DNA of 64,000 nt from an uncultured virus (IMG/VR IMGVR_UViG_3300015360_000031). Its lineage: Duplodnaviria > Heunggongvirae > Uroviricota > Caudoviricetes. Location of the stretch: the IMG/VR virus record IMGVR_UViG_3300015360_000031; one strand, given 5' to 3'. Each line of letters begins with the position of its first letter. The stretch's first letter is position 1. The notes beneath the pieces are model-generated. The model worked only from the letters and a program-made list of their open reading frames with translations, was not told where the DNA came from and did no database searches. Below are positions 6,918 through 34,099 of the stretch, in pieces. The position numbers were made by a program, and so were the translations under genes.

Positions 6918-6925
6918 ACTTGCTG

Positions 6926-6948: not shown

Positions 6949-6955
6949 TCAACGC

Positions 6956-20503: not shown

Positions 20504-21409
20504 TCACTGCCTGGGTGGGTTGATTGCGTGCTCGACGCTTTCCGGGAGCTCGAACATCGGTCGACCTTCACGCTTGCGCTGCCAGATCTTGAGCGCGGTG
20601 ATCGAGGCTGCACCGGCAACCACCGTGAAGCCGATCCACTGCAACATGCCCCACTTCGTGGGCGTGCCGGGGATTCTGATGTTCGGCTTGTCGACGAGCC
20701 TTTTGCAGACCTCGACGCACTGCTCGGTGCTCTTGCCTTGCTGCGTGCACGACGCGTAGCAGGCAAGCCGTGCCGCGGTGTATGTCGCGAACGCGTCAGC
20801 CTGCATCTTGGTCTGCGCCGTGTTGGCCTCCTGCACCTTGGAGACTTCGAGATAGTGCATGATCGCGGTGACCGCGACCGCCACGGTGATCAAAGCACCG
20901 GCGATCACGATGATCACACCGACCACGCCAAGCCCGGCCTCACGCGTCTGCGTGAGCGCGGCGAGCGTGGCGAACGATGGCGAATTCTCAGGTGCGAACA
21001 CAAACGGATCATCAGTCACGACATCGATCTCGTTCGTCGAGAGGTACTGCGTCGTCCCCTCGTTCGGACCGCGTAGCGCGACCTTCATCGCGCCCGACAA
21101 GCTCGTTGCCTGCCCTGCGCAGTTGATTTGCACCGCGTCTTGGCCGCGCACGCCCTTCCACCCGAACATCGTCGGTGCGTCTGGCAGCTCGCGAACGTTC
21201 TGCTCGCCGTTCGCGCGCAACGTCGCGAGCATGCCGCGCTGCGTGTTGTAGACGGCGATCGCCCACAAGTTGTACGCCTTCACCTCGTCGCATGTTGCAC
21301 GGCCAACCTTGAGCAGCCCACCGATGTTACTCGCCGCGCGCCGCAACGCCTGGTAGGTCGCTTCGAGGTTGCCCGTGATCGTCTTGAGCCGCTGCGCCTG
21401 ATCAGCCAT
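20504..21409 (-). CDS. Two-TM, Cys-containing putative virion membrane protein
   Basis: AGLG directly before TM1; CxxxC...CxxxC between the TMs; ATG 7 nt after TAGGGT. Confidence 0.7.
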   Translation of the reverse strand: MADQAQRLKTITGNLEATYQALRRAASNIGGLLKVGRATCDEVKAYNLWAIAVYNTQRGMLATLRANGEQNVRELPDAPTMFGWKGVRGQDAVQINCAGQATSLSGAMKVALRGPNEGTTQYLSTNEIDVVTDDPFVFAPENSPSFATLAALTQTREAGLGVVGVIIVIAGALITVAVAVTAIMHYLEVSKVQEANTAQTKMQADAFATYTAARLACYASCTQQGKSTEQCVEVCKRLVDKPNIRIPGTPTKWGMLQWIGFTVVAGAASITALKIWQRKREGRPMFELPESVEHAINPPRQ

Positions 21410-21644
21410 AGGTCCTACCCTATCGCAAAACCCTAGAAACCAGCCGGCATAAAACAATGGGGTCTCTCCCTCCTGTCACCGCGCGGATCACAGTCCCCTG
21501 CGGTTGGGTCGCTCACGTTGATCCGTAACGTCTACGTCGGAGCCGGGTCGACTTCGAGGCAACAATCTGAGCGCGCACAGCGGCAAACACCCCCAAACGG
21601 GTGCGGGCGACGGTGCTTGCTGGTTCCCGGGTTGCTGAAACGCC

Positions 21645-21667
21645 AAGCTACTACGGGGGGCTGACAG
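21645..21667 (-). promoter_or_regulatory. Viral promoter motif copy with no adjacent start codon
   Basis: CTGTCAGCCCCCCGTAG-TAGCTT. Confidence 0.7.
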
Positions 21668-21796
21668 CTTGTCGAAACCACCGGAGCCATGAGAGAACGC
21701 TCGACCGTGATCGACGACAAAATGAGACGTGGCCTCTGCGAGCTGATGGACTGGGCCGAGCCCATCCTGTCAGCCCGCGAGGCCGCGACCGATCAG

Positions 21797-22135
21797 CTAC
21801 CGAGCGTAGTCGGGCAGTGCGTCGGAGATCGCGCAGCTGACCCGCGTATCCTCACCGTCGGAGATCACGTAGAGCCCCTGTCCCGGCGCGCAGATGAACT
21901 CCTCGCTCATGCCAGGGGGGATCTCGAACGATCCTGATCCGACCGGCCACTTGTCGAGCTCGTTCTGGCTGTGGGAGACCCACACCGAGTTACCGAACGA
22001 GATGTTGCGCACGAGTACGCGCGTCGGTGACTGCGCGTGCTTGACGATCGTCACCGCAGCTTTGGCTGTCGGGGTGCCGTCATTGACCGCCGCAGGTGCG
22101 GTGGTCGTGAACGTCCGTGAGTCCTGCATGGGCAT
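21797..22135 (-). CDS. Small beta-sandwich virion protein (penton/minor capsid candidate)
   Basis: RVLVRNIS...VWVS...FEIPPG...GLYVIS alternating beta pattern; downstream of the capsid candidates. Confidence 0.5.
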   Translation of the reverse strand: MPMQDSRTFTTTAPAAVNDGTPTAKAAVTIVKHAQSPTRVLVRNISFGNSVWVSHSQNELDKWPVGSGSFEIPPGMSEEFICAPGQGLYVISDGEDTRVSCAISDALPDYAR

Positions 22136-22154
22136 GGCCTGTCATCCCCGCGCG

Positions 22155-22646
22155 TTAGGCTACCGGGGTGCCGAGAACCAGCAGGAAGCCCTCGAACGTG
22201 ATGCACACCCGCAGCTGCAATGCGGCCGGAACGAACGTCGGGAACGCCAGCGCGTCGAGGACGACTTGCAGCTGAGCGTTGTTGGGCAGGTAGTGAGGAT
22301 CGGCCCACTCCCAGGTGCGCTCGCTCGAACCCTTGAGCAACGTACCGAGGAGCGTCGCGCTCTTCGTGATCAGCTGATCGAGCCCGAGGTCCACGATACG
22401 CGCGCGGATGAGACCGAGCAGCAGCTCCTGATCGGGCTGCGTCACGACCATCACACCGTCATTGAAGGCGTAGATCCGCGGGATCATCCGGTGGATCTCG
22501 AACGGCTTGTTGACGTTGTTCTGGAACGTCGCGTCCGGGTATTGCTGGTTCTGCAACAGCGTGGTGAGCGTGAACTCGCCGGCGAGCGTGTACGGGATGC
22601 GCTGCATGATGGCGCGATCACCAAAAGTAGAGGGAAGTCGACCCAT
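22155..22646 (-). CDS. Candidate small single-jelly-roll capsid protein (163 aa)
   Basis: GAGGAG RBS; beta-rich; ends LRVCITFEGFLL. Confidence 0.45.
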   Translation of the reverse strand: MGRLPSTFGDRAIMQRIPYTLAGEFTLTTLLQNQQYPDATFQNNVNKPFEIHRMIPRIYAFNDGVMVVTQPDQELLLGLIRARIVDLGLDQLITKSATLLGTLLKGSSERTWEWADPHYLPNNAQLQVVLDALAFPTFVPAALQLRVCITFEGFLLVLGTPVA

Positions 22647-22723
22647 TTTCTGTATCTCCTCGTCGCCGTTTAATTGATGACGACGGAGATCAGCGTCCCC
22701 CCACACCCGGAGTTAGGTCAAAA

Positions 22724-23069
22724 GATGATGAGCGCACCCGTGATCAATGAGCTGGTTTTCCTCGCGCCCGTGATCGGCCCGAAGGTCTACATGGCTCGCG
22801 GCCCGTCCGGGTGGGTGGAGACGTTCCTTCGCCCGAAGCTCGACGCGGAGCTCGCGACGTTCGCAGTGCCACTCGAAGTGGACGAGATCGTCGACATGTT
22901 CGTGGCCACGCGTGACCTGGCCGAGAAGCCGGTGCCGATCGACTGGTTTTCGATCATCGGGTTCCTCGGCCGCACCATGGACTGCTCGCCGCTCGCCGTG
23001 CCCCACACCGTCGGGATCGCGTTCTGGGCGCACGTGATCATGGCGCGCCGCGCGGCCACGGCGAACTGA
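22724..23069 (+). CDS. Hypothetical protein between the capsid candidates, opposite strand
   Basis: Protein-like ORF, followed by a coupled ~51 aa ORF (23069..23224). Confidence 0.5.
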
Positions 23070-23222
23070 TGCCACCGCCCACCAGCAGGCCCGGATTCAT
23101 CGACTTCGCCCGCGAGCTCAAGAAGCTGGCCGCGAACGAAGGCCCATGTGCAATCGACTTCATCATCGAGCCTGACGGTCAAGCTCGCCTGACGTTCCGC
23201 AAGTTGAGCCGCACCACAACGT

Positions 23223-23254
23223 AAAAAGGCCGGCGCCACGAGGGAACCGGCCTT
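23223..23254 (-). terminator. Rho-independent terminator after the major capsid candidate
   Basis: Minus strand AAGGCCGG...CCGGCCTTTTT. Confidence 0.7.
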
Positions 23255-23291
23255 GTCCCGCTCACGCTGAGCGGCGGTGTAGCTGCGTCGC

Positions 23292-23999
23292 TTAGACGAC
23301 GTTGCGGCGGATGAGGCCGTAGAGGTACGTCTTGACGTCGCAGAACGTCAGCGCCGTCGAGCCGTCGGACGCGGCCTGGTTGATCACCAGGGCCGCCTCG
23401 GGCGCGAACGACATCTTGTACGCGAGGTTCTCACGCAGCCAGATCGGCAGCACGAGCGCGTTCCGATCGCGGGGCGACGGCGTGCCGTTCTGGGCGAGCT
23501 CGAAGTTCGAGTTCGTCGAGAACACGTTGAAGCCGTGGCCCTGCGGGTAGTCCTGCATCACGCCGAACGTGTACCGCTTGTCGTTGTACGAGAACTCCAG
23601 GTAGGTCACCCGGTCCACGTTGAACAGCGTGCGCAGCGTCGGAGGATCCGACAACGCGCCAGAGCCGTCCGCGAGTACCGGGGCGACGCCGCCGGTGGCA
23701 ACGCGCATCACGCGCGTCATCTTGACGCCGATGCCGTAGATGTACATCTCCCACGACATCGGGAGCCCGGTGTCACCCGAGCGAGGGACGTTCGTGTCGA
23801 CGCGAGTCGACGCGCGCTGCCCGCCGGGGATCGGCTGCGAGCGACCAGAGACGAACGCCTCGACGGGCGACGTCTGGCCGTTCGTGAACTGGATCGTGGA
23901 GTAGAGCTTGTCGTCGATCCAATCCTCGATCGAGACGGTCTGCCCGTTGGGCAGAGTGATGGTGGTGGTTCCAGGTGCAACGCCAACGGTGCCGGACAT
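23292..23999 (-). CDS. Candidate major capsid protein, single jelly-roll type (235 aa)
   Basis: GAGGAG RBS, own terminator, beta-rich; LYST...DTNVPRSGDTGLP...WEMYIYGI...LVLPIWL...YLYGLIRRNVV; no HK97-like features. Confidence 0.55.
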   Translation of the reverse strand: MSGTVGVAPGTTTITLPNGQTVSIEDWIDDKLYSTIQFTNGQTSPVEAFVSGRSQPIPGGQRASTRVDTNVPRSGDTGLPMSWEMYIYGIGVKMTRVMRVATGGVAPVLADGSGALSDPPTLRTLFNVDRVTYLEFSYNDKRYTFGVMQDYPQGHGFNVFSTNSNFELAQNGTPSPRDRNALVLPIWLRENLAYKMSFAPEAALVINQAASDGSTALTFCDVKTYLYGLIRRNVV

Positions 24000-24115
24000 G
24001 TCGATCTCCTCGAAGAAACACCGGCGGAAAGTGGCCGGCACACTGGTTTGCGTTGAGGGGTCGTCCCCTAGACGCGTGGGATGTGGGTGCGAACACCGCA
24101 CCGTGATTCCCGGTT

Positions 24116-24143
24116 GGGTGATCGAGCAGCTGCTCGATCACCC
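24116..24143. repeat. Perfect 28-bp palindrome upstream of the capsid gene
   Basis: GGGTGATCGAGCAGCTGCTCGATCACCC with imperfect outer arms (24103..24154). Confidence 0.85.
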
Positions 24144-24161
24144 CGCGGGGTCACGCTGTGG

Positions 24162-24734
24162 TTAGCGACCGCCGCCGAGCAGCGTCGCGCCGTACGCGGC
24201 CGACAGACCGTGGACCGACGGGCCACCGATGCCCTTGAGGTGCGCCGCCTGCGGGCTCATGTTGCCGAGCAGCGAGACCGGCGGGGCAGAGAGCCCGCCG
24301 TGCGACAGCTGGTTGCCGGCGACGCCGACCGGTGCCTGGCTCTGCGAGATCATCGGGATGCCGAGCCCGTTGAGGTTGCGGATCATCGGGACGCCGAGCC
24401 CGTTGAGCGCGCGGATGTTCGGGATGCCGAGCCCGCCACCCGAGAGCAGCCGCTCGAACAGCGAGATGCCGGTGGCGAGGAACGCACCGACCGCCGACGC
24501 AATCGCCGCGTGGCGCGTGCTCCGCATCGCATACATGCCGCCCGAGACCGCGAGGCCCGTGAGCAGACCGAACGCCTCGGGATAGCCCTTGCCGATGCGG
24601 CGTAGGGCGATCGACGTGACGCCGGCGACGCCGCCACCGATCAGGGTGCCCCAGATCGGGCTCATACCCGGGTTCTGGCCGAACGAGTTGAGGCCGAGGA
24701 GATCGACCGATCCGAGCATGCGACGACGAGACAT
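24162..24734 (-). CDS. Gly-rich multi-TM virion membrane protein with three GLG(I/V)P repeats
   Basis: Three hydrophobic segments, then 11-aa repeats GLGIPNIRALN / GLGVPMIRNLN / GLGIPMI. Confidence 0.7.
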   Translation of the reverse strand: MSRRRMLGSVDLLGLNSFGQNPGMSPIWGTLIGGGVAGVTSIALRRIGKGYPEAFGLLTGLAVSGGMYAMRSTRHAAIASAVGAFLATGISLFERLLSGGGLGIPNIRALNGLGVPMIRNLNGLGIPMISQSQAPVGVAGNQLSHGGLSAPPVSLLGNMSPQAAHLKGIGGPSVHGLSAAYGATLLGGGR

Positions 24735-24781
24735 GTGATTGTTCCTTTGCTGGGTTCTTGGGCGGGGTTAACGAGAGCCCT

Positions 24782-24967
24782 CTATCGAGGGCAGTGCTGG
24801 CTTCCGCCCTTGACGAACTGCCAGCCGCTACGGTTCTTCGCGCTCTTGCCGACGAAGCACAGCCGCGCGGATCGCTTGGTTCGCGGGTTGTAGACGCACT
24901 TGCACTTCTCGCCGGGCGCGCCGAGCGAGCGCTCCGAGGAGCCTGAGAGCGTCATGATCTTCGCCAT
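24782..24967 (-). CDS. Small basic Cys-rich protein
   Basis: KCKCV...LCF...HCPR; co-oriented with the capsid genes. Confidence 0.6.
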   Translation of the reverse strand: MAKIMTLSGSSERSLGAPGEKCKCVYNPRTKRSARLCFVGKSAKNRSGWQFVKGGSQHCPR

Positions 24968-24973
24968 CGCTGA

Positions 24974-25453
24974 TCAGCCCGCTCGAAAGTAGGAATTCCA
25001 GCGGCGCGTGGCCGCCTCGTACGCGGCGACCTGCGGCCCACCACCCGCGTTCGGCGCGAGGTGCGCGAGCATCTGAAACTGCTGCGCGATCTGCGGCGCG
25101 ATCATGCGAGCTTCGTGGACGGCGGAACCGTAGCGATTCCCTGAACCATGACCACCGGGGGCCGCGATCGGCATACCGGCAGTGCCACCGGCCGCCATGA
25201 ACTTGCGCGCCTTGTTCGCGGCGAACCACGACTTGATGCGGAAGCCGAAACGCTGAAACGGTCCGGCCGCGCCGAGCCCGCGAAGACCGCCGAGGCCCAT
25301 GCCGCTGGGTGGGCCGCTCGTGAACGAGCTCGCGACCGCTTGCACATCACCGTGCGGGTTCCAGCCGAACATCGACGACAACACGCCGGTTCGGTAGACG
25401 CGATCGGGGCGCATCGAGTGCGCCGAGTCGCCGTGACGGATGATGAGTGCCAT
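24974..25453 (-). CDS. Gly/Ala-rich putative virion protein
   Basis: Contains GMGLGGLRGLG; preceded by TTGACG-N18-TAGCGT-N7-ATG. Confidence 0.65.
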   Translation of the reverse strand: MALIIRHGDSAHSMRPDRVYRTGVLSSMFGWNPHGDVQAVASSFTSGPPSGMGLGGLRGLGAAGPFQRFGFRIKSWFAANKARKFMAAGGTAGMPIAAPGGHGSGNRYGSAVHEARMIAPQIAQQFQMLAHLAPNAGGGPQVAAYEAATRRWNSYFRAG

Positions 25454-25692
25454 GGCGATCACGCTATGCGCGACTGCCTAGTTTCGTCAATTATTTCAAT
25501 TGCTTAGGTAGGCCGTTGAGCATCCATGATCATGAGAGCTGGGCTAACCATCGGGGATCGCGATCTCAAGCCCGCAAACTTTTGATCACGAGCGATCAAT
25601 CGTCGTAGACTGGTTGCGGGTCGGGGGCGACTCAGCTGGTGAAAACCAGCATGTTGCCCATGCTCATCGTCTCCCCATCCACCGCTTCCGCC

Positions 25693-26193
25693 ATGGCGCT
25701 CCACGCCACGTCGAGCTCGTGGGTGATGTTCGTCCAGGTCAACCCACCGTCGGGCGGTCCGGGTCCGATCAAGATCGAAGGTGTGAAGGGCACCAACATC
25801 GCGCAGCGGCTGCGCGCGATCGTCAGCGACAACCCGTTCGAGGCGATGTTGATCGGGCTCATCGCGACGCCGACACCGACGGAGCACGCGAGCGCGATCG
25901 CGGAGCAGTACGGCAAGGCGCTTCACGATGGTTGGTACGAGGCGACCGCTGATCTGATCGCGTTCGTGCAACACGTCGCGCAACTTCCGTTGCAGGAGCT
26001 GCTCGCGCAAACGCACCCGGGCGCGATGTCCGATAGCCCGGTGGATGTCGAGGACATGGCGAAGATCCTCGACGTCTCGGTGCCGACGGTGCGCCGCATG
26101 GTGCACGCGAACGAGATCCCGTATCTTCGATTCGGCCGCATGCTCCGGTTCGTGCCTGCCGACGTGCTCGCCAGTCTTCGACGGGGCCGGTAG
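25693..26193 (+). CDS. Excisionase-type HTH (HTH_17) protein with a degenerate T5orf172/GIY-YIG-like N-terminus
   Basis: VEDMAKILDVSVPTVRRMVHANEIPYLRFGRMLRF; N-terminal MFVQ...GPIKIEG; start uncertain (25639 possible). Confidence 0.65.
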   Translation: MALHATSSSWVMFVQVNPPSGGPGPIKIEGVKGTNIAQRLRAIVSDNPFEAMLIGLIATPTPTEHASAIAEQYGKALHDGWYEATADLIAFVQHVAQLPLQELLAQTHPGAMSDSPVDVEDMAKILDVSVPTVRRMVHANEIPYLRFGRMLRFVPADVLASLRRGR

Positions 26194-26194
26194 C

Positions 26195-26217
26195 CTGTCA
26201 GCCCACCACAGTATGGT
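26195..26217 (+). promoter_or_regulatory. Viral promoter motif copy
   Basis: CTGTCAGCCCACCACAG-TATGGT, 6 nt before GTG 26224. Confidence 0.75.
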
Positions 26218-26223
26218 GGGGGT

Positions 26224-26520
26224 GTGCCGAAGAACCGCCGCGTCCGCGCGCCCGCCCCTATCGACAATGAGCTGACCCCTCGCGAAGCCGCAGTCGCGGA
26301 CCTGCTCTGCATGGGGCACTCGAACAAGATCATCGCCGACGAGCTCCACGTGTCACAGCACACGGTGAAGTTCCACATCATGGGCCTGACGCGGAAGCTC
26401 AACGGCCCGAAGAACGGAAGTCGCGTGCTCGCCGCGGTGCGCTGGGCACTAAAGCGCACGCACGAGCAGCTCAACACGCAGCCCGAGGAGGTGCTCGAAG
26501 CGCCGCGAGTGACCGCGTGA
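26224..26520 (+). CDS. LuxR-type HTH transcription regulator
   Basis: LTPREAAVADLLCMGHSNKIIADELHVSQHTVKFH. Confidence 0.85.
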   Translation: MPKNRRVRAPAPIDNELTPREAAVADLLCMGHSNKIIADELHVSQHTVKFHIMGLTRKLNGPKNGSRVLAAVRWALKRTHEQLNTQPEEVLEAPRVTA

Positions 26521-26699
26521 CCTGCGCATGTGGGAATGCGGCCCGCTACATCGACGCAACCGGCGCTTTGGTTTGCGGTATCTGCCCGATCAAGGCCAAG
26601 CTCGATTCGATCCGGATCGCAGATGTACCTGCGTTGCTAGCGTGGGCACGCGAGGCATCCCCAGATGCGACGAACATGATTGTTGGAAGGAAACCGTGA
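26517..26699 (+). CDS. Small zinc-finger-like protein
   Basis: CACG...CGIC; coupled overlaps. Confidence 0.5.
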   Translation: MTCACGNAARYIDATGALVCGICPIKAKLDSIRIADVPALLAWAREASPDATNMIVGRKP

Positions 26700-27538: not shown

Positions 27539-27544
27539 CGTCGA

Positions 27545-27970
27545 ATGCAAAACGACGAGTACCAGCAGCAAGCGCTGCGCACCGAGTACACCCCGGACTG
27601 CGTGAACATCAACCGACAACGCGAGGTTGGGGTCACCCCACACGACCTTGATCGTGCAGACGCCGCCGATTCACGGCTCGCGCGAATCCTTCACGGGATG
27701 ATCGGGGCCGCGACCGAGGTCGGCGAGCTCCAAGACGCGGTGAAGAAGCACCTGATCTATGCGAAGCCCCTCGACATGGTGAACGTGATGGAGGAGTGCG
27801 GCGACATCCTCTGGTACGTCTCGCTAACCTTGCACGCCGCGGGTTTCACGATCGGCGAGTGCATGGATCGCAACATCGAGAAGCTCCGCGCGAGGTTCCC
27901 CGACAAGTTCACGAGCGAGCTCGCGAACAACCGCGACCTGAGCGCCGAGCGCGCCGCACTCGAAGGCTGA
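27545..27970 (+). CDS. MazG-like NTP pyrophosphohydrolase
   Basis: GAATEVGELQDAVKK...EECGDILWY...NIEKLRARFP. Confidence 0.85.
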   Translation: MQNDEYQQQALRTEYTPDCVNINRQREVGVTPHDLDRADAADSRLARILHGMIGAATEVGELQDAVKKHLIYAKPLDMVNVMEECGDILWYVSLTLHAAGFTIGECMDRNIEKLRARFPDKFTSELANNRDLSAERAALEG

Positions 27971-28004
27971 TCCCGTAACTCAGGCTGCGTGGTAGCGTCG
28001 CTGC

Positions 28005-28469
28005 ATGTTCATGATGCGGAACCTGAGCGGCCCGGCAACGATGTTCGAGGTCGACACATCACACAACACGTCGAACATGATGCTCTGGCAGAGCGAGGTG
28101 CGGCTAAGGCGGCCAGCGTCGTCATGCCCGACGGGCTACGTCATGACCGAGTTCGGCTGCGCGTTGCTGAACCAGCCGACCGGCGGCGTCGGGTACGACA
28201 AGCCGTGCCCCGCCGGCTACCTCCAGACCGGCACCAGCTGCCTGCCTTCGCAGCTACCGCAGACGGAGCCCGCCTACCCGCAGATCTACAACCCGCCGGC
28301 GCCGACACCGCCGCCGCTGGATCAGCCGAGCCCAGGCACGATCGTCTACCCAGCGATGCCTCAGCCGCTACCGCAGATCGGCTCGATGATGCCGAAGTGG
28401 GCGCTCATCCTCGCGGGTGGCGGGACGCTGCTCGGGCTGCTCGCGCTCGTGCTTCTGCGCCGCCGCTAG
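28005..28469 (+). CDS. Cys/Pro-rich membrane-anchored virion protein
   Basis: Two CPxGY...C modules, Pro stalk, C-terminal TM plus RRR. Confidence 0.7.
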   Translation: MFMMRNLSGPATMFEVDTSHNTSNMMLWQSEVRLRRPASSCPTGYVMTEFGCALLNQPTGGVGYDKPCPAGYLQTGTSCLPSQLPQTEPAYPQIYNPPAPTPPPLDQPSPGTIVYPAMPQPLPQIGSMMPKWALILAGGGTLLGLLALVLLRRR

Positions 28470-28747
28470 AGCTGCCAACGCTTGCCGTCGCAAGACGCGA
28501 CCAAGCGTCCGCCGTGGTTCTTCCACTTGGTGCCGTCGCTCGTGTACTGCCCGCGGATCACAACTGACGTGCCCGCCGTACACGCCTCTTTCGCACGGCT
28601 CATCGCTGAGGCGATCGACGGTGCTGGTTCAAGACACTTCGTTCCCGCGCGCGTCGTCATGCACGCGCGGAACGTCTCACCCTTCGGGAACTTCGTTGGG
28701 TGATCCTGAATTACCCGCAGTCGGCGCTTCCTCCGCGCAACACTCAT
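28466..28747 (-). CDS. Small basic Cys-containing protein
   Basis: MSVARRKRR...; co-oriented cluster. Confidence 0.55.
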   Translation of the reverse strand: MSVARRKRRLRVIQDHPTKFPKGETFRACMTTRAGTKCLEPAPSIASAMSRAKEACTAGTSVVIRGQYTSDGTKWKNHGGRLVASCDGKRWQL

Positions 28748-28757
28748 CGGCGACTGC

Positions 28758-29018
28758 TCATCGCAGCACCGAGGCAACACCGAAGAGGAGCAGCGCGAGC
28801 CCGCCGAGCACGATCGGCTTGCGGTACTGCCAGAGCGGCGACTGGAACAGATCCATCATGCCGGCGAGCTGCTGCTCAGCCACGATGGGATCCGGTATGA
28901 CGGGCAGCGCGGTGTTCCGCGGGATCTGCACGTGCGCGTTGATGTTGATGTCGGGCGACGAGCTGATCTCGAAGCTCCAGCTCGGTGCCATTTCTGATCC
29001 GGATCGCGTGATCAACAT
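28758..29018 (-). CDS. Small C-terminally membrane-anchored protein
   Basis: PIVLGGLALLLFGVASVLR. Confidence 0.6.
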   Translation of the reverse strand: MLITRSGSEMAPSWSFEISSSPDININAHVQIPRNTALPVIPDPIVAEQQLAGMMDLFQSPLWQYRKPIVLGGLALLLFGVASVLR

Positions 29019-29354
29019 CTAGCGGCTCCGCTTGCGGCGCTTGGGTGGGCGCACGACAGCGCCGTTACCGCGCCAGTCGGCAAAGTCCTGCGTGCCTTGC
29101 GACGAGAACGAGATCGCCGCGCGTGCGGCCGAGATCATCGCACGAGGATCATCAACAGAGAGCCGCTTGCCGTGACGGCTCCGCGGCCCTGCGCCGGGCA
29201 ACCCAACGGAGACCGTCTCGCACGGGTAGCTCTTCCGGCCGTGCTTCGCGAGCGCGCTCGGGAATGGGCAGAGCTTGACCTTGTACTGATCCATTCGATC
29301 GTTGAACGCGACCTGGATACGTAGCTTGCCGCTCACGAGGTTGGTTTTCGCCAT
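29019..29354 (-). CDS. Basic protein
   Basis: Ends PPKRRKRSR; AAGGGG RBS. Confidence 0.6.
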   Translation of the reverse strand: MAKTNLVSGKLRIQVAFNDRMDQYKVKLCPFPSALAKHGRKSYPCETVSVGLPGAGPRSRHGKRLSVDDPRAMISAARAAISFSSQGTQDFADWRGNGAVVRPPKRRKRSR

Positions 29355-29356
29355 GG

Positions 29357-29611
29357 CTAGTTGTTCCCCTTGTAGATCTTCGTGGTCAGAAACTTCTTCG
29401 CGTTCGCGAACGCCTCCGTCGGCGTGCGCGCGTCTCCGACGGAGACCGGCAACTTGTTGCGGCCCACGACGAGGTTGACCGTGAAGCCGTGCGTGTTGCC
29501 CTCGACGCAGAGCTTCATGTTGTTCGTCCACGGCTCGCACTTCTTGTAGCCGACGAACTGCTTCGCGAGCGGTGCGCGCTCCGACGAGCCGAGGTTCTTA
29601 CGGCGCGCCAC
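29357..29611 (-). CDS. Small basic protein
   Basis: GTG overlapping the upstream stop; MARRKNLGSSER. Confidence 0.55.
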   Translation of the reverse strand: MARRKNLGSSERAPLAKQFVGYKKCEPWTNNMKLCVEGNTHGFTVNLVVGRNKLPVSVGDARTPTEAFANAKKFLTTKIYKGNN

Positions 29612-30021
29612 TACGCGCTCCTGCGCTGGCCGAAGCCCTGCGCGACGCCGATCACTGGGGTGATGACGGGGAACACGGTGCCCATGAGGAACCACCACGC
29701 GGCCCAACCGATGGACTGGTTGCGCTTGTAGCCGTGGTACGCGCTCGCGGCGCCGCTCACGATCGTGAGGATGCCGAACAGGCCCGCCGGGTTGTACCGA
29801 TCGGACGCGCTGAGCCACATCATCGACGAGCTGATGGTGGCCGCCGAGACACCGCGCGCGATCAGTAGTCGCGCCACGTCAGGGCGATCGGCTTTGCTGT
29901 ACAGCTTGAGGAAGTTCGAGACGTCCGACGAGCTCGGGCTCGGCGCCTTGAGCAAGAACCCGTCGATCTCCCTGTCGAGACCGGTGGGTGCAGGGTCAGA
30001 GAAGCCGAGGAGCTGGAACAT
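29611..30021 (-). CDS. Two-TM virion membrane protein
   Basis: MFQLLGFSD start; AYHGYKRNQSIGWAAWW...AQGFG. Confidence 0.7.
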   Translation of the reverse strand: MFQLLGFSDPAPTGLDREIDGFLLKAPSPSSSDVSNFLKLYSKADRPDVARLLIARGVSAATISSSMMWLSASDRYNPAGLFGILTIVSGAASAYHGYKRNQSIGWAAWWFLMGTVFPVITPVIGVAQGFGQRRSA

Positions 30022-30065
30022 CTCGCTAGCCTACACGAGCAGGCCAGGTTTCAGCACGATCAAGC

Positions 30066-30770
30066 TCACGCCGGAAAGTCGATCTTCTTTGCGAACCGTG
30101 CCTCGATGCCGAACTTGTCCGAGCCTGGGAGCGTGGTGTCGAGCGCGACGAACCGGCCGGTGTCGGTGAAACCCGCGTAGATGTGCGACCAGTCGGGATC
30201 ACCCTTCGCGCGGACCACGCGCAACACCGGGGTGAGCCCGTTGAGCGCGAGGAGGGTCGCGTTGAGGATCGAGTTGTCGTCACAGTCACCGCCACCGAAC
30301 TCCCACGTGCGCCGCGCGCTCTGGTAGAGGTCGATGCCTTCGACGCCGCCACCTGGATGCTTGATCGGTCCGATGTCGCCGGTGTAGCGAACGCGGCCCT
30401 TGACCGCGCGGTAGATCGCCTTCGCCTCGCACGCCTTGTCGCGCTCCTGACACTGCGCCGTGATCTGAAGCGCGAGCTTGCGCATCTGCGGATCCTGCAC
30501 TGACTTGTGCACGAGGTCTTGGATCGTCGCGAGCCGCTGCTCGATCGGCATGCCCGCGCTCGCACGCATCTGCGTTTTCATCCGGCCATCGTTGTACGCG
30601 CCGATCACCGGCGCTTGGCGCGTCGTGCGCCCGAGACCTGCCATCATGCCGTGCGCCGGTACGCCGGCGAGCGCGAGCACTTTGCGCTCTCGGTAGTACA
30701 TCGCACCACCGAGCGCGAGGAGGCCGAGACCGCTGATGGCTGAGAACCAGGCGAGGCGTTCGTTCTGCAC
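30066..30770 (-). CDS. Transglutaminase-like cysteine protease with N-terminal TM (maturation protease candidate)
   Basis: VRYTGD, GGDCDD (Cys), WSHIY (His), VALDTT (Asp) triad pattern. Confidence 0.8.
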   Translation of the reverse strand: MQNERLAWFSAISGLGLLALGGAMYYRERKVLALAGVPAHGMMAGLGRTTRQAPVIGAYNDGRMKTQMRASAGMPIEQRLATIQDLVHKSVQDPQMRKLALQITAQCQERDKACEAKAIYRAVKGRVRYTGDIGPIKHPGGGVEGIDLYQSARRTWEFGGGDCDDNSILNATLLALNGLTPVLRVVRAKGDPDWSHIYAGFTDTGRFVALDTTLPGSDKFGIEARFAKKIDFPA

Positions 30771-30806
30771 GTCTTGAAACTAACACAGCGTGATAGATCT
30801 TGACCC

Positions 30807-32237
30807 ATGCTCCTTTTTGGCCTCGGGAACACTGCGGCACGGGCTGCGATGCAGTCGACATACAACGTGGAGCTCGTCCAAGGCGGCGCGGGAACGGTGT
30901 TCGATCCCAAGCACGGCGGGGGCTTCACGATCCAGCAGCACCACTTCGTCTCGGTCTACAAGGAGGTCAATCCGTACTGGCCGCCCCCAGCCGATAGCGT
31001 GGCCCGCGCGGCATGGGCGAAAGAAAACACCACCGCGCAGGAGGCATGGCGCACGAAGGTTCGCGCAGCGTCCACCATTTTTCCCACCTGCGCTGCGGAT
31101 ACTGTCACCGGCCCCAACGCCTGCCACCAGGAGATGGGTGAATACGCGGCGGCGCATCACTTCGATCCGATCGCCAGCAAGCGCGTGACAGACCCGATCA
31201 GCTTCATACCGCCCGGCGTGTTCGAGTTCTATCGTGTCCCGTTCGTACTCAAGGATTTGGCTGAGGGGCGTTTCAAGCGCGTCTACGCACCCACGCCTGA
31301 GCAACGGCGTGATGCTGAGCTCGCGATCATCCTCGCCTCGCAAGTTCACCTGTTCGGATCTGGTGGCTGGCCGAGCGCCATGGACAGCGGGCCTATCACG
31401 CGCCCGCTCGTACACAGCTCTTTGGCGAACTACGCTGCCGGTGGTGACGCAATCTTGCGTGGAATGCGCGCTGCCGTGCGGACGAGCGCCAGCTACGTCA
31501 CAACCGCGGATCTGACAGCGCTCGCAAGAAAAATGTCCGTCGATCAAATGCTCGCGATCGTCCCCGACATGGCGTTGTTCCTTGTCAACTTCGTGCGCAA
31601 CCCGATTCAGCCGTCCTACGCGCAGCGGACTGAACCTGGTGGATGGGCGTCGTGGCTCGCAAGTGGTGGCTACCCACTCTCGCGTGCGGTTGCCGCAGGA
31701 CAGATCACTACGGGCCGCGGTGTTCCTCAGTTCTGCATGACATCCCTCTGCCAATGCCCCGCAGTTGAAGGCACGTGGGGTGGATTTGCTGCATGCGCTG
31801 CGGGCTGCCTCACACGCAAAGGCACGATTGGCAGCTACCGCAACAAGGATGATTGCGCAGCATTCAGCGCCTTCGTTGCGGTCTCTCAGGATCTGACCAA
31901 TCCGTACCCCTTCATGCTGACGCTCGTCAGCGAAGATCCGCCTTCCGTTTGGGAGCGCATGAAGCGCGCGGTCGGTGGAGTCTTGGAGCGCGATCTTCCT
32001 GCGCTCGTTTGCGGTCCCGGCACAGCAGCCGCGCAAGGATCTGCCAACCCAACCACGAAAGCGTATGGCGCGTACTTGAGCTGGGTTTGCGGTCGATTCA
32101 CGATGCCGGATGCACCGGTGCCATTGCCGGCGCCAGATCAAGATGAGCCACCACCGTTGGTGTCATTCAAGATTCCATGGTGGCTCGTCGTGCTCGGTGG
32201 TGTCAGCGCAGGCGCCTACGCGTTCTCGCGCAAGTAA
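30807..32237 (+). CDS. Large Cys-rich C-terminally anchored virion protein
   Basis: MLLFGLGN start; multiple Cys; IPWWLVVLGGVSAGAYAF TM. Confidence 0.7.
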   Translation: MLLFGLGNTAARAAMQSTYNVELVQGGAGTVFDPKHGGGFTIQQHHFVSVYKEVNPYWPPPADSVARAAWAKENTTAQEAWRTKVRAASTIFPTCAADTVTGPNACHQEMGEYAAAHHFDPIASKRVTDPISFIPPGVFEFYRVPFVLKDLAEGRFKRVYAPTPEQRRDAELAIILASQVHLFGSGGWPSAMDSGPITRPLVHSSLANYAAGGDAILRGMRAAVRTSASYVTTADLTALARKMSVDQMLAIVPDMALFLVNFVRNPIQPSYAQRTEPGGWASWLASGGYPLSRAVAAGQITTGRGVPQFCMTSLCQCPAVEGTWGGFAACAAGCLTRKGTIGSYRNKDDCAAFSAFVAVSQDLTNPYPFMLTLVSEDPPSVWERMKRAVGGVLERDLPALVCGPGTAAAQGSANPTTKAYGAYLSWVCGRFTMPDAPVPLPAPDQDEPPPLVSFKIPWWLVVLGGVSAGAYAFSRK

Positions 32238-32265
32238 ATTCAGACCCCGTGATAGGGTTCTGGGG

Positions 32266-32793
32266 ATGCTCATGGTCAACCCCACCCACGGGCTCCGCGG
32301 CCCTTCTTTCCTGAACGGCCTCAACGCAGCAAACGCCAGCATCGAGACGTTGCAGCGTGCGCTGACCAACCTCGCGATCTCGTCGGGCCGCCCCGCCATC
32401 AACCCCGGCCCGATCAACGGCGTGCTCAACGACTCAACGATGGTTGCGGTGAGCGCCGCACACGGCATCATCACCGAGCAGCTGCCGAGCTGGATGTATC
32501 TCGCACTGCAAGCCGCGATGATGGTCGGCGCCACGAACTCCACCGCGAAGAGTTACGTCACGCAGTATGCGCCGCAGCTCACGATCGCGATCAACACCGC
32601 CGCGGTGAAGTACAAGCAGCAGCAGCCGAGCAGCAACGTGATGATCTATCAGCCGGCCGCCACGCAGCCGCAGGGCGTCTTCGCAGCGCTGTTCCCTGTA
32701 GACTGGTACAAAAAGCCAACGTGGGGCCTCGCGCTCGCACTGATCGGCGCGTTCGGGTTCTACAAGTTCTTCATCGCGGCCCCCTCGAAGTAA
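32266..32793 (+). CDS. Membrane-anchored protein with PG-binding-like domain
   Basis: IETLQRALTNL...NPGPINGVLNDST; WYKKP then TM. Confidence 0.65.
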   Translation: MLMVNPTHGLRGPSFLNGLNAANASIETLQRALTNLAISSGRPAINPGPINGVLNDSTMVAVSAAHGIITEQLPSWMYLALQAAMMVGATNSTAKSYVTQYAPQLTIAINTAAVKYKQQQPSSNVMIYQPAATQPQGVFAALFPVDWYKKPTWGLALALIGAFGFYKFFIAAPSK

Positions 32794-32810
32794 CCCGGAA
32801 GGATCTGCAC

Positions 32811-33089
32811 ATGTTCCAGCTACGCGGCCTCGGTGATTGCACCGCCACCCCGAACGATCCAGTCTGCATGGCGTTCTACAACACCTCCTCACCTACGATG
32901 GTGCTGTGGCAGGGGTTTCATGCGAACACACCGCCCGGTGCCAGCGTGCAGCAGCCAACGCCTGACAAGAGCATCACCGTAACGCAACCCGCGAGCTCGG
33001 CCTGGTACAAGTCATGGTGGGGCATCGGCCTTCTCGCGATCGGCGCGTTCGGGGCCTACAAGTACAGCCGCCCGAAGGCGAATCGCTGA
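32811..33089 (+). CDS. Small membrane-anchored virion protein
   Basis: MFQLRGLGD start; WYKSWW then TM. Confidence 0.7.
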   Translation: MFQLRGLGDCTATPNDPVCMAFYNTSSPTMVLWQGFHANTPPGASVQQPTPDKSITVTQPASSAWYKSWWGIGLLAIGAFGAYKYSRPKANR

Positions 33090-33093
33090 GCCC

Positions 33094-33468
33094 ATGGCGC
33101 AGCTGCGCGGCATAACGGATGATCTCTTGACCCTGATCAATCAGGGTCCCGCGGTCGCACAGAACCTCGCAGCGATCATCCGCCGCGTGAATCCGTACAT
33201 CGGCACCGTGCGTCGGGTTGTCGACGATCCAGCGTTCCCGACTTTGATGCAACGGGTCCAGACGATCACGAACATGACCCCAAGCTCTGGCGGTGGCGGT
33301 GGCGGTGGCGGTAGCGGGAGCATCGGGCTCGCGAAGGCCGTGCCACTGCTCGACGGCTACATCTACGCGCTACGCAACCCATGGGCGCCGTGGCTCGCCG
33401 GGCTCGGCATCCTCGCGCTGATCGGCGGCGTCGGGTATCGTATGGGGCAACGGAAGGCCGGTCGATGA
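33094..33468 (+). CDS. Small membrane-anchored protein with poly-Gly linker
   Basis: MAQLRGI start; SSGGGGGGGGSGS; C-terminal TM. Confidence 0.7.
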   Translation: MAQLRGITDDLLTLINQGPAVAQNLAAIIRRVNPYIGTVRRVVDDPAFPTLMQRVQTITNMTPSSGGGGGGGGSGSIGLAKAVPLLDGYIYALRNPWAPWLAGLGILALIGGVGYRMGQRKAGR

Positions 33469-33683
33469 TGCACTTCACCAACACCGTCGGCGTCGCACCG
33501 GGGACCACCACCATGCAGCTCGCAGGCACCAACGTTCGGCTCTGGGGCACACTCAACCAGCAACCGCTCGGCGCGATCGACACACGCGCGCGGATTCGCT
33601 GGGACATCATCGGGTTGATCGGAGGCATCGCGCTCATCACGGCGACGCTGACTGGGCTGATTGCCGGCTCGCTCGGCAAGTAG
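33465..33683 (+). CDS. Small membrane protein sharing its N-terminal peptide with the capsid candidate
   Basis: TVGVAPGTTT identical to residues 4-13 of 23292..23999; C-terminal TM. Confidence 0.65.
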   Translation: MMHFTNTVGVAPGTTTMQLAGTNVRLWGTLNQQPLGAIDTRARIRWDIIGLIGGIALITATLTGLIAGSLGK

Positions 33684-33718
33684 TGATCGAACCCGCGGGC
33701 CGGTGGTAGGCTGATCGC

Positions 33719-34099
33719 ATGATCATCGTCAACCCCGATCCGACCTTCACGCAGTACAGCCCCGCGGGTCGCGTCACAGGTAACCTGCGCATCGGTCGCG
33801 CGCAGCCGAGCTACCTCAACGATGATCCGATGTGGAACGAGCGCGGCGAGGGTGGCTACTACCACGACACGCAGCTCGGCGGGCGCCGGCGCGGGCGCGG
33901 GCTGTTCTCAGCGTTGCGTGCGAAGCTCGGGCTCGGCGACGCCGTGCCGGCGACCACCGATGATGTCGTCTCGATGATGAACGCGCACAACGATCGCGTG
34001 TTCGCGCTCACCGTCGTGTCGACGACCGCCGTTGCGGTCTCCGCAATGCTGACCGTGTTCCGCACGCTCAAGCTGATCCGCGAAGACGCACGCAGCTAG
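33719..34099 (+). CDS. Membrane-anchored virion protein
   Basis: KLGLGDA; C-terminal hydrophobic helix; ATG 6 nt after TGG-TAGGCT. Confidence 0.65.
   Translation: MIIVNPDPTFTQYSPAGRVTGNLRIGRAQPSYLNDDPMWNERGEGGYYHDTQLGGRRRGRGLFSALRAKLGLGDAVPATTDDVVSMMNAHNDRVFALTVVSTTAVAVSAMLTVFRTLKLIREDARS

What the first reader, a model, noticed from the sequence alone, without database searches (positions are those of the whole stretch)
20504..34099. Shared [LM]xG[LI]G motif in virion proteins matches the adenovirus protease consensus and sits beside a transglutaminase-like protease
Seen: exact [LM]xG[LI]G hits in LFGLG (30807), LRGLG (32811), LRGLG (24974..25453), LNGLG twice and LKGIG (24162..24734), and MAGLG in the protease itself (30066..30770), just after its TM helix. 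Looser versions: AGLG before TM1 (20504..21409), KLGLG (33719), N-terminal LLGFS (30021), LRGIT (33094), LRGP...LNGLN (32266). Hits tend to be near N-termini or next to TM segments. Known: adenovirus protease cleaves (M/I/L)xGG/x and (M/I/L)xGx/G, and transglutaminase-like Cys-His-Asp proteins can be proteases. Inference: a bacterial virus with adenovirus-like proteolytic maturation of many membrane proteins by a non-homologous, possibly self-releasing protease. The motif could alternatively be a sorting or assembly tag.
Basis: partly seen in the sequence, partly recalled or inferred. Interest (0 to 1): 0.82.

Follow-up and report, generated by a model that had tools for sequence, protein, structure and literature searches.

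The report
Shared Leu-x-Gly-Leu-Gly tag beside viral protease
Many unrelated particle proteins of a large, uncultured, apparently tailless membrane virus of bacteria carry the same short Leu-x-Gly-Leu-Gly signal, and a conserved cysteine-protease-like enzyme sits among them, so the virus may trim its proteins during assembly much as adenovirus does, although no cutting has been shown.

Summary
[LM]xG[LI]G occurs 8 times against 0.75 expected in 24 proteins of 20504-34099, and 2 against 1.14 in 50 other proteins. It is commoner than every reordering of the same letters.

Twelve related uncultured virus contigs confirm it: 61 sites, against 8.4 expected and 19 for the reversed motif. Sites are conserved at matching positions in at least 10 unrelated protein families. 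Only 7 of 71 sites lie in membrane helices.

Gene 30066-30770 encodes a membrane-anchored enzyme of transglutaminase fold with invariant Cys163, His196 and Asp211. Its nearest solved sequence relative is the protease LapG. Its flexible linker carries the tag. It is homologous to gp34, a structural protein of the cultured membrane phage SSIP-1.

The shell candidate is predicted as a jelly roll, and no terminase or HK97 capsid was found in complete relatives.

Cleavage is the best reading (about 0.45) but is untested. An uncut docking tag is a serious rival. Earlier notes of this scan report the same signal on other genomes.

The parts
30066..30770 (-). Membrane-anchored transglutaminase-fold Cys-His-Asp enzyme, the candidate processing protease. 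Predicted helix at residues 2-34; disordered linker at 36-50 holding MAGLG (residues 43-47, DNA 30630-30644). Catalytic candidates: Cys163 (30282-30284), His196 (30183-30185), Asp211 (30138-30140).
   Evidence: Pfam Transglut_core matches 12 of 12 family members at E up to 10 (best 5.8e-8; the window's own protein 0.018, 15.7 bits, below the 23-bit cut-off). C163, H196 and D211 are invariant in 12 of 12. AF2 mean pLDDT 78.9, with the linker under 50. Foldseek and VIA give transglutaminase-like proteases and transglutaminases, Z 9-12. LapG is the best solved sequence match, E 0.0095. hhalign to SSIP-1 gp34: 98.4%, E 9.6e-15.
24162..24734 (-). 190-aa membrane protein with several tags: N-terminal MLGSVDLLGLN (24687-24701), GGLGIP (24423-24437), LNGLG twice (24393-24407 and 24360-24374), LKGIG (24225-24239), and the C-terminal HGLSAAYGATLLGGGR.
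   Evidence: In 11 orthologs the N-terminal VDLLGLN, the LNGLG(I/V)P repeats (2 to 4 copies) and the C-terminal box are conserved.
24782..24967 (-). 61-aa basic, Cys-rich protein (possible core or DNA-binding protein) with the N-terminal tag MAKIMTLSG.
   Evidence: The I-M-T-L-S/G/A-G stretch is conserved in most of 11 orthologs, followed by a variable spacer and a conserved Cys-rich basic body.
24974..25453 (-). 159-aa protein with GMGLGGLRGLG (25268-25300) between a conserved N-terminal domain and a basic amphipathic helix.
   Evidence: About 8 of 10 orthologs have an L-x-G-L-G or L-x-G-L-R form at this place, next to a region of variable length.
29611..30021 (-). 136-aa membrane protein starting MFQLLGFSD (tag at 29998-30012).
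   Evidence: Orthologs start with QLLG, LLGLG, LSGLG or AGLG within about 20 residues. A promoter-like TAGGCT lies 6 nt before the ATG.
30807..32237 (+). 476-aa protein with a C-terminal membrane anchor, starting MLLFGLGN (30813-30827).
   Evidence: 4 of 5 orthologs have GLG within the first 8-20 residues (MLFHRGLG, GFGGLG, FFGLG, LCGLG). The gene runs divergently from the enzyme gene, with a 36-bp gap between them.
32266..32793 (+). 175-aa protein with a C-terminal anchor. N-terminus THGLRGPSFLNGLN (32311-32325).
   Evidence: Orthologs have L-x-G forms here, for example PLSGLGS in L010.
32811..33089 (+). 92-aa protein with a C-terminal anchor, starting MFQLRGLGD (32820-32834).
   Evidence: Other genomes have small proteins with the same start: MFQLRGLS, MLQLRGSGLG, MMFLGLSGLGD.
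33094..33468 (+). 124-aa protein with a C-terminal anchor, starting MAQLRGITDD (33103-33117). A second LAGLG (33394-33408) lies inside the membrane helix and is probably compositional.
33719..34099 (+). 126-aa protein with KLGLGD (33926-33940) just before the conserved C-terminal helix and anchor.
   Evidence: Orthologs have LRGLG, LSGL, LRGLAEGE or LGLGD at the same place.
20504..21409 (-). 301-aa protein with EAGLG (20924-20938) directly before its first membrane helix.
   Evidence: GLG is invariant at this place in 5 orthologs, but the Leu two places before is absent. Two other genomes have LWGLG and LAGLG at residue 218 of 329-aa and 321-aa proteins; I did not check whether these are orthologs of this gene.
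23292..23999 (-). 235-aa candidate major capsid protein (context). It carries no tag.
   Evidence: 62-87% identical in relatives. 443 homologs, none named. AF2 mean pLDDT 62. Fold matches are almost all viral jelly-roll capsid proteins: Foldseek E 1e-4 with TM about 0.3, VIA Z about 7.

Best explanation
Leu-x-Gly-Leu-Gly (core G-L-G with Leu two places before, plus an N-terminal form M-x-Q/K-L-x-G) is a short linear signal shared by at least ten unrelated proteins of the particle module of a widespread family of large, apparently tailless, jelly-roll-capsid membrane viruses.

The most likely reader is the module's own enzyme (30066-30770). It is anchored by one membrane helix and has a transglutaminase fold with a Cys163-His196-Asp211 triad. 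The proposed mechanism is that it cuts at or next to the signal during particle maturation. This would remove short N-terminal leaders, free soluble domains from their membrane anchors, and cut its own linker to release its catalytic domain.

Shown here: the motif's enrichment, its conservation, its position in flexible segments, the enzyme's fold and invariant triad, and its homology to a virion protein of a cultured phage.

Inferred: that the enzyme is a peptidase, that it reads this motif, and that any bond is cut.
For: 1. Enrichment and conservation of the motif; alignments.
2. Sites lie mostly outside membrane helices (64 of 71), in variable-length linkers or at N-termini. [LM]xG occurs within residues 2-14 in 9 of 18 module proteins against 5 of 55 others. 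One of the 9 rests on a start codon that I set wrongly, so the figure is 8 of 17.
3. In three families the tag sits between a soluble domain and its membrane anchor: the enzyme, 33719 and 20504.
4. The enzyme has an invariant C-H-D triad, a transglutaminase-like fold and LapG as its best solved sequence match. [quoted passage not shown]
5. One ortholog has an intein inserted immediately before the catalytic Cys. Inteins tend to sit in essential sites (recalled).
6. The enzyme's own linker carries the tag: 57 of 88 homolog linkers contain G[LFM]G and 76 of 88 contain [LFM]G[RKH], in an otherwise variable linker of 38-66 residues that is disordered in the model.
7. One diverged relative has shifted from GLG to GFG in several proteins at once: 6 GFG against 2 GLG, where the other 12 genomes have 7-14 GLG. 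This fits a single common reader.
8. The capsid and enzyme families are about equally large, 443 and 446 homologs. No other protease family appeared in the Pfam and PHROGs scans of 77 window proteins.
9. The homolog gp34 of the cultured phage SSIP-1 is annotated as a structural protein. Adenain is likewise packaged in the virion (PMC5409498, passages read).
Against: - No cleavage data exist for any member. The SSIP-1 paper, which may give N-terminal sequences, is not held.
- The fold does not decide the chemistry. Transglutaminases (Z 10.3), PNGase (9.8), the pseudomurein isopeptidases PeiP and PeiW (9.5, 8.4) and LapG (9.5) are tied within about 2 Z units of the putative proteases (11.9, 11.5).
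- The window's own protein misses Pfam's cut-off (15.7 against 23 bits).
- Two to six tags spaced 11 residues apart in the 24162 family would yield tiny peptides if all were cut. That pattern suits multivalent binding better.
- Some N-terminal tags would remove only about 6 residues.
- SSIP-1 has no strict motif (0 sites). Its relaxed hits, 8 against 2.9 expected, lie mostly in membrane segments.
- The reversed motif is also above its shuffle expectation (19 against about 8), so part of the excess comes from local composition.
- Counts across relatives are not independent events.
- In 14 of 88 enzyme linkers no form of the tag was found.
Confidence: 0.45

Rival explanations
1. The tag is an uncut docking or assembly signal. 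It is a short peptide by which membrane and core proteins bind one common site, on the capsid protein or on another hub, and so tie the inner membrane to the shell. The transglutaminase-fold enzyme is just one more tagged membrane protein, with a separate job.
For: - Tags sit at termini and next to membrane anchors, where a tether would be expected.
- The 24162 family has 2-6 tags at about 11-residue spacing, as expected for multivalent binding.
- A second shared peptide exists in the same module: the capsid protein's N-terminal VGVAPGTTT is copied on the small membrane protein 33465-33683. This virus family therefore does reuse short peptides.
- The joint GLG-to-GFG shift fits any single reader.
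- Encapsulin cargo-loading peptides are a precedent for Gly/Leu-rich docking tags (recalled, not checked here).
Against: - A conserved Cys-His-Asp enzyme inside the module then has no explained substrate.
- The capsid candidate has no modelled groove to test, because its model has pLDDT 62.
- No binding test could be run.
- In viruses, a short motif shared across many structural proteins together with a virus-encoded protease is the usual signature of cleavage sites, as in adenovirus and phage T4 (recalled).
Confidence: 0.3
2. The enzyme and the motif are unrelated. The enzyme would be a virion-borne cell-wall isopeptidase used at entry or exit (like PeiP and PeiW), or a true transglutaminase that cross-links particle proteins. 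The motif would be read by a host factor, or would be a structural Gly turn.
For: - PeiP (Z 9.5), PeiW (8.4) and animal transglutaminases (Z about 10) match the model about as well as proteases do.
- SSIP-1 gp34 is a virion protein, as entry enzymes are.
- Some N-terminal tags have Gln or Lys at position 3: M-F/A-Q-L-x-G in 7 instances over 4 genomes. These are the two residues that transglutaminases join (recalled).
Against: - The window already has a separate candidate wall-binding lysin, 6920-7846 (PG_binding_1, E 8e-5; weak endolysin PHROG).
- The motif's fixed letters are L, G, L, G. Gln before L-x-G is only 1.6-fold enriched.
- The tag in the enzyme's own linker would be a coincidence.
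- No host factor reading such a motif is known to me (recalled).
Confidence: 0.17
3. The motif is a by-product of Gly/Leu-rich composition and of picking a pattern after looking.
For: - The proteins are Gly-rich (up to 20% Gly).
- The reversed motif is also about 2-fold above shuffles.
- 7 of 71 sites lie in membrane helices.
Against: - The excess is 7-fold over per-protein shuffles and 3-fold over the reversed motif in 12 independent contigs.
- Sites are conserved position by position across families with 30-70% identity, while the flanks vary.
- 44% of GLG tripeptides are preceded by Leu at -2, against 8.2% background.
- Sites cluster around the capsid gene in complete genomes.
Confidence: 0.03

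Closest known systems
Adenovirus protease (adenain/AVP, MEROPS C5, clan CE) and its precursor sites (M/I/L)XGG-X and (M/I/L)XGX-G
   Same: - One short Gly-containing consensus with Leu or Met at P4 recurs on many unrelated particle proteins.
- L-x-G-L-G fits the second adenovirus pattern letter for letter (consensus recalled).
- Several capsid and core precursors (pIIIa, pVI, pVIII, pVII, pre-mu, pTP, L1 52/55k) are trimmed by an enzyme that is itself in the particle (PMC5409498, passages read).
- The main shell protein carries no site.
   Different: - The enzyme here has a transglutaminase fold with triad order Cys-His-Asp and a membrane anchor. No clan CE fold appears among the fold matches.
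- The host is bacterial.
- The capsid candidate looks like a single jelly roll.
- Cleavage has not been shown.
LapG and other bacterial transglutaminase-like cysteine proteinases (BTLCP, Pfam Peptidase_C93)
   Same: - LapG is the best solved sequence match to the family profile (4u65_E, E 0.0095). Its fold match is Z 9.0-9.5.
- The boxes around the catalytic Cys are alike: GDCDD here and GDCED in LapG in the printed alignment.
- Both have a C-H-D triad.
- LapG cuts a short motif of small residues (Ala-Ala, new N-terminus AGPSAAGTGG) and so releases LapA from the cell surface (PMC3032545).
   Different: - Peptidase_C93 matches only 2 of 12 family members (best E 0.0022).
- This enzyme is viral and membrane-anchored, not periplasmic and soluble.
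- No LapD-like partner was seen.
- The motif differs.
[quoted passage not shown]
   Same: - It is a true homolog of the enzyme: hhalign probability 98.4%, E 9.6e-15, 131 columns, with Cys, His and Asp aligned.
- It is the only hit in 50,697 phage records.
- It is membrane-anchored.
- GenBank annotates it as a structural protein of a cultured, tailless, membrane-containing phage (PMC6356626, passages read).
   Different: - Its anchor is C-terminal rather than N-terminal.
- The SSIP-1 genome is 44 kb.
- No strict L-x-G-L-G sites are present.
- Its capsid candidates gp45-47 show no similarity to this capsid profile.
- The function of gp34 is not stated in what I could read.
Phage T4 capsid targeting sequence and prohead protease gp21 (recalled)
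   Same: A short N-terminal tag shared by unrelated internal proteins both loads them into the particle and is then removed by the virus protease. This would reconcile the cleavage and the docking readings.
   Different: T4 is a tailed HK97-fold phage, its protease is of the herpesvirus-assemblin type, and its motif is L/I-x-E. Nothing of this was tested here.

Membership tests
Transglutaminase-like superfamily (Pfam PF01841 Transglut_core; papain-like clan CA) | Significant match to the family profile | tested here: met
   12 of 12 family members match at E up to 10, best 5.8e-8. The window's own protein scores only E 0.018, 15.7 bits, below the 23-bit cut-off. PF01841 is precomputed on many of the 120 listed homologs.
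Transglutaminase-like superfamily (Pfam PF01841 Transglut_core; papain-like clan CA) | Cys, His and Asp in that order, all conserved | tested here: met
   C163, H196 and D211 are invariant in 12 of 12. They align with the Cys, His and Asp of SSIP-1 gp34. Whether they lie close together in the model was not measured.
Transglutaminase-like superfamily (Pfam PF01841 Transglut_core; papain-like clan CA) | Transglutaminase-core fold | tested here: met
   Foldseek: 3isr 1.2e-4, TglA, 3kd4, LapG, PNGase. VIA: Z 11.9 (3kd4), 11.5 (3isr), 10.3 (TG3), 9.5 (LapG, PeiP), over 126-154 aligned residues.
BTLCP / Peptidase_C93 (LapG type) | Match to the Peptidase_C93 profile | tested here: inconclusive
   2 of 12 members match, best E 0.0022. 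LapG is the best solved sequence hit, but only at E 0.0095.
BTLCP / Peptidase_C93 (LapG type) | Peptidase activity dependent on the catalytic Cys | not testable with these tools
   Needs an assay. It was shown for LapG C135A (PMC3032545).
BTLCP / Peptidase_C93 (LapG type) | Periplasmic soluble enzyme partnered with a LapD-type receptor and a large adhesin substrate | tested here: not met
   The enzyme here has an N-terminal membrane helix and lies in a virus particle module. No LapD-type or adhesin family appeared in the Pfam and PHROGs scans of the window.
Adenain (MEROPS C5, clan CE) | Ulp1/adenain fold with a His-Glu/Asp-Cys triad | tested here: not met
   The fold is transglutaminase-like and the order is Cys-His-Asp. 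The triad order of adenain is recalled.
Adenain (MEROPS C5, clan CE) | Substrate consensus (M/I/L)XGX-G or (M/I/L)XGG-X on several particle proteins | tested here: met
   At pattern level only. L-x-G-L-G occurs on at least 10 protein families. Among 64 sites outside membrane helices, position 1 is L in 59 and M in 5. The consensus is recalled.
Adenain (MEROPS C5, clan CE) | Cleavage at these sites in maturing particles | not testable with these tools
   No cultured member and no proteomics.
Tailless jelly-roll-capsid membrane viruses (context of the claim) | Jelly-roll major capsid protein, and no HK97 capsid or terminase | tested here: inconclusive
   The capsid model has pLDDT 62. Its matches are almost all viral jelly rolls, but weak: TM about 0.3, Z about 7. 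Terminase_6N, TerL_ATPase and Phage_capsid were found in 0 of 5 relatives, 3 of them complete. There is one weak FtsK-like hit, E 0.0046. A membrane in the particle is inferred only from the many small membrane proteins.

The most novel reading that the evidence does not exclude
A widespread, undescribed family of large (77-178 kb) tailless membrane viruses of bacteria matures its particles by an adenovirus-like cleavage code (Leu-x-Gly-Leu|Gly). The code would be read by a protease of a different fold, a membrane-anchored LapG-like transglutaminase-fold enzyme that also frees itself. This would be a convergent invention of consensus-site maturation in jelly-roll-capsid viruses of bacteria, with SSIP-1 gp34 as a cultured handle.
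Probability: 0.4. Interest if true: 0.8.

Novelty: new variant of a known kind. Interest (0 to 1): 0.62.

Why it matters
If the enzyme cuts at this signal, it would be, to my knowledge, the first maturation protease and cleavage code described for membrane-containing, jelly-roll-capsid viruses of bacteria. PRD1 and PM2 have none (recalled). It would also be a case of convergence with adenovirus, using an unrelated protease fold.

My five literature searches on these topics found no such description. One of those searches, asked only about TglA.

The motif also gives a practical way to recognise particle proteins among the orphan genes of this virus family. That family has more than 440 capsid homologs in public metagenomes.

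If the tag is instead an uncut docking peptide, it would still show how dozens of membrane proteins are tied to a protein shell.

SSIP-1, which is cultured, makes the question testable.

Tried and rejected
- **Close relatives among known phages.** None by DNA or by the capsid protein in 50,697 records.
- **Whole genome for the window.** None is held, and there are no earlier notes on this genome.
- **Complex prediction** (enzyme residues 50-234 with residues 96-140 of the 24162 protein). The queue was full and the tool was then declared unavailable. No result either way.
- **SSIP-1 paper** (PMC3344969 / doi 10.1073/pnas.1120174109). Not held, so I could not see whether virion proteins there have processed N-termini.
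- **SSIP-1 motif check.** 0 strict sites. Relaxed sites number 8 against 2.9 expected in late genes, mostly in membrane helices. SSIP-1 does not reproduce the code as defined here.
- **SSIP-1 gp45, gp46 and gp47 against the capsid profile.** Probabilities 0.3%, 1.0% and 0.2%. No link shown.
- **ESM Atlas for the capsid.** The nearest named clusters are PM2 P2 and PRD1 P3 at 0.75-0.77, which the tool rates as leads only. Not used as evidence.
- **Intein-bearing 872-aa protein as terminase.** Its terminase PHROG hits fall in the intein region (residues 223-493). The exteins form a P-loop ATPase of undetermined kind.
- **Membrane-helix composition as the cause of the motif.** Rejected, because 64 of 71 sites are outside predicted helices.
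- **Gln at -1 as part of the motif.** Only 1.6-fold enriched overall, so I kept it as an N-terminal subclass only.
- **Literature.** The searches for a transglutaminase-like maturation protease in phages, for large tailless jelly-roll viruses, and for TglA returned nothing relevant.

Full report
**What the window is.** The window has about 63% G+C and no tRNA genes. It carries phage-type replication genes: family A DNA polymerase with a uracil-DNA glycosylase domain, a PD-(D/E)XK nuclease, a Sak4-like ATPase, DUF669, MazG and thymidylate synthase. It has no match in 50,697 phage records by DNA or by the capsid candidate, and no whole genome is held for it.

Searches with two of its proteins found 12 related IMG/VR contigs of 39-138 kb with conserved gene order. 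Three of them are complete, with terminal repeats: 85.2, 85.7 and 137.9 kb.

**Genes of the region.** I chose reading frames by third-position G+C, by homologs and by start-site context. Most proteins between 20.5 and 34.1 kb are orphans with membrane helices and have no Pfam or PHROGs family.

The most conserved gene is 23292-23999(-), 235 aa.
- It is 62-87% identical in relatives and has 443 unnamed homologs on contigs up to 178 kb.
- Its AF2 model is of middling confidence, pLDDT 62.
- Its matches are almost all viral jelly-roll capsid proteins, though weak: Foldseek E 1e-4 with TM about 0.3, and VIA Z about 7, including SPV1, HHIV-2, HCIV-1 and FLiP.
- Terminase_6N, TerL_ATPase and HK97 Phage_capsid were found in 0 of 5 relatives.

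In the window:
- [LM]xG[LI]G occurs 8 times in 24 proteins of the region against 0.75 expected from per-protein shuffles.
- It occurs 2 times in 50 other proteins against 1.14 expected.
- It ranks first among all reorderings of its five slots. The reversed motif scores 4 and 2.

The pattern was chosen after looking at the sequence, and two of the sites form a tandem repeat. I therefore put more weight on independent data:
- **Twelve relatives:** the module proteins hold 61 forward sites, 19 reversed and 8.4 expected in 64,322 aa. One contig has none, and one has 1 against 0.85 expected.
- **Three complete genomes:** 15 sites against 2.4 expected lie within 15 kb of the capsid gene, and 8 against 4.2 elsewhere. 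Gene calling by G+C was incomplete in the genome with the lowest G+C.
- **Membrane helices:** of 71 sites, 7 lie in predicted membrane helices.
- **Letter preferences:** among the 64 sites outside helices, position 1 is Leu in 59 and position 4 is Leu in 61.
- **Context of GLG:** 61 of 139 GLG tripeptides have Leu two places before, against 8.2% background. After L-x-G, the pair LG follows in 61 of 642 cases.

**Conservation.** This is the strongest evidence.
- **24162 family:** the N-terminal VDLLGLN, the LNGLG(I/V)P repeats and the C-terminal box are kept in 11 orthologs while the spacers vary.
- **24974 family:** about 8 of 10 orthologs keep an L-x-G-L-G or L-x-G-L-R form next to a variable-length gap.
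- **30807 family:** 4 of 5 orthologs have GLG within 8-20 residues of the start.
- **29611 family:** orthologs start with QLLG, LLGLG or LSGLG.
- **33719 family:** L-R/S-G-L-G lies just before the C-terminal anchor.
- **20504 family:** GLG is invariant right before the first membrane helix, but without the Leu.
- **24782 family:** this small basic Cys-rich protein keeps I-M-T-L-S-G at its start.
- **N-terminal subclass:** M-F/A/L-Q-L-x-G opens proteins of at least four families, 7 instances in 4 genomes.
- **N-terminal [LM]xG overall:** it occurs within residues 2-14 in 9 of 18 module proteins against 5 of 55 others. One of the nine rests on a start that I set wrongly, so the figure is 8 of 17.
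- **Start codons:** several are backed by a promoter-like GTGnTAGnnT element 6-7 nt upstream. It occurs at 15 ORFs against 4.4 in shuffles.

**The enzyme.** Gene 30066-30770(-) encodes 234 aa: a helix at residues 2-34, a linker at 36-50 with pLDDT under 50 that holds MAGLG, then a well-modelled domain.

Family and fold:
- Transglut_core matches all 12 family members (best 5.8e-8), but the window's own protein only at 0.018, below the cut-off. Peptidase_C93 matches 2 of 12.
- C163, H196 and D211 are invariant, as is the GDCDD box.
- A family profile finds LapG as the best solved sequence, E 0.0095.
- Fold searches give putative cysteine proteases (Z 11.9, 11.5), transglutaminases (about 10), PNGase, PeiP, LapG (9.5) and CPR-C4 (8.8). 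The fold is certain. The chemistry is not.
- One ortholog has an intein inserted immediately before the catalytic Cys.

Linker and relatives:
- Of 120 listed homologs, 88 had a recognisable membrane helix and domain start.
- Their linkers contain the strict motif in 18, a relaxed form in 22, G[LMF]G alone in 17, [LM]xG alone in 17, and none in 14.
- [LFM]G[RKH] is present in 76 of 88 and G[LFM]G in 57 of 88.
- The only phage-record hit is SSIP-1 gp34 (E 0.3). hhalign confirms it as a homolog: 98.4%, E 9.6e-15, with Cys, His and Asp aligned.
- GenBank calls gp34 a structural protein of this cultured, tailless, membrane-containing phage.

**How it most likely works.**

*Cleavage (about 0.45).* The enzyme cuts at the tag during maturation.
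- For: a virus-encoded cysteine enzyme sits beside a consensus shared by many particle proteins, the tags lie in flexible segments and between soluble domains and anchors, and the tag lies in the enzyme's own linker.
- For: LapG, its nearest solved relative, is a Cys-dependent protease that cuts a short motif of small residues to release LapA from the cell surface (PMC3032545).
- For: one diverged genome shifts from GLG to GFG in several proteins at once, which points to one common reader.
- Against: there are no cleavage data, the fold is ambiguous, repeats 11 residues apart would give tiny products, and SSIP-1 lacks the strict motif.

*Docking tag (about 0.30).* An uncut tag would explain position, repetition and co-variation equally well. 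The module reuses at least one other peptide: the capsid N-arm VGVAPGTTT reappears on the small membrane protein 33465-33683.

*Unrelated enzyme (about 0.17).* The enzyme might be a wall isopeptidase or a cross-linker with no link to the motif.

*Composition alone (about 0.03).* This is largely excluded.

A T4-like case, where a tag first loads a protein into the particle and is then removed, would merge the first two readings.

**Comparison with what is known.** The system resembles adenovirus maturation in logic and in the letters of the site. It fails the membership test for adenain, because both the fold and the triad order differ. It is a member of the transglutaminase-like superfamily. 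Membership of the LapG/BTLCP family is inconclusive. Its closest characterised relative by sequence is SSIP-1 gp34, whose function is not stated in what I could read.

My searches found no paper describing this virus family or a transglutaminase-fold maturation protease in phages.

Earlier AI notes of this scan report the same kind of signal and enzyme on other genomes, and supplied the SSIP-1 lead. I re-tested that lead here.

**Verdict.** I rate it as a new variant of a known kind, consensus-site virion maturation, with moderate-to-high interest.

Noticed in passing
window 21409(-), 25453(-), 28005(+), 30021(-), 30770(-), 32266(+), 33719(+) and 8 further starts: A promoter-like element GTGnTAGnnT lies 6-7 nt before the ATG or GTG of 15 ORFs of at least 40 aa, against 4.4 (maximum 11) in 50 shuffles. 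This spacing would give leaderless mRNAs. The enzyme gene and 30807 are divergent, with only 36 bp between their starts; 30807 has a TAGATC variant.
   Followed up: partly
window 47135-49753 (-): An 872-aa P-loop ATPase has an intein inserted inside its Walker A box (GSGK | Cys ... His-Asn | Thr). The terminase-family PHROG hits fall in the intein region, so the kind of ATPase is undetermined.
   Followed up: partly
L012 3638-5308 (+): The ortholog of the transglutaminase-fold enzyme carries an intein of about 330 residues, inserted exactly between GGGD and the catalytic Cys.
   Followed up: no
window 33465-33683 (+) and 23292-23999 (-): A small protein with a C-terminal membrane anchor begins with a copy of the capsid candidate's N-terminal peptide (T/S-VGVAPGTTT). 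The copy is conserved in 5 orthologs.
   Followed up: partly
G001, G004, G005 (complete relatives); L017: No Terminase_6N, TerL_ATPase or HK97 capsid family was found in 5 relatives, including 3 complete genomes of 85-138 kb. The only packaging-type signal is a weak FtsK-like P-loop hit (E 0.0046) in a 353-aa frame of G004.
   Followed up: partly
L006 (contig c843): The most diverged capsid-bearing relative has GFG (6) rather than GLG (2) outside membrane helices. Three of the GFG sites are in its 24162 ortholog and three are in two other proteins.
   Followed up: partly
window 24782-24967 (-): A 61-aa, highly basic protein with conserved Cys residues and a tagged N-terminus. It is possibly a DNA-condensing core protein, comparable in role to adenovirus pVII or mu.
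   Followed up: no
window 20050-20409 (-): A thioredoxin-fold protein (Thioredoxin_2, E 3.4e-7) is encoded at the edge of the particle module, next to several Cys-rich particle proteins.
   Followed up: no
protein P0229: One homolog of the enzyme sits on a 3-kb contig that NCBI labels as a Tepidisphaeraceae (Planctomycetota) metagenome bin. This is a weak hint at the host.
   Followed up: no
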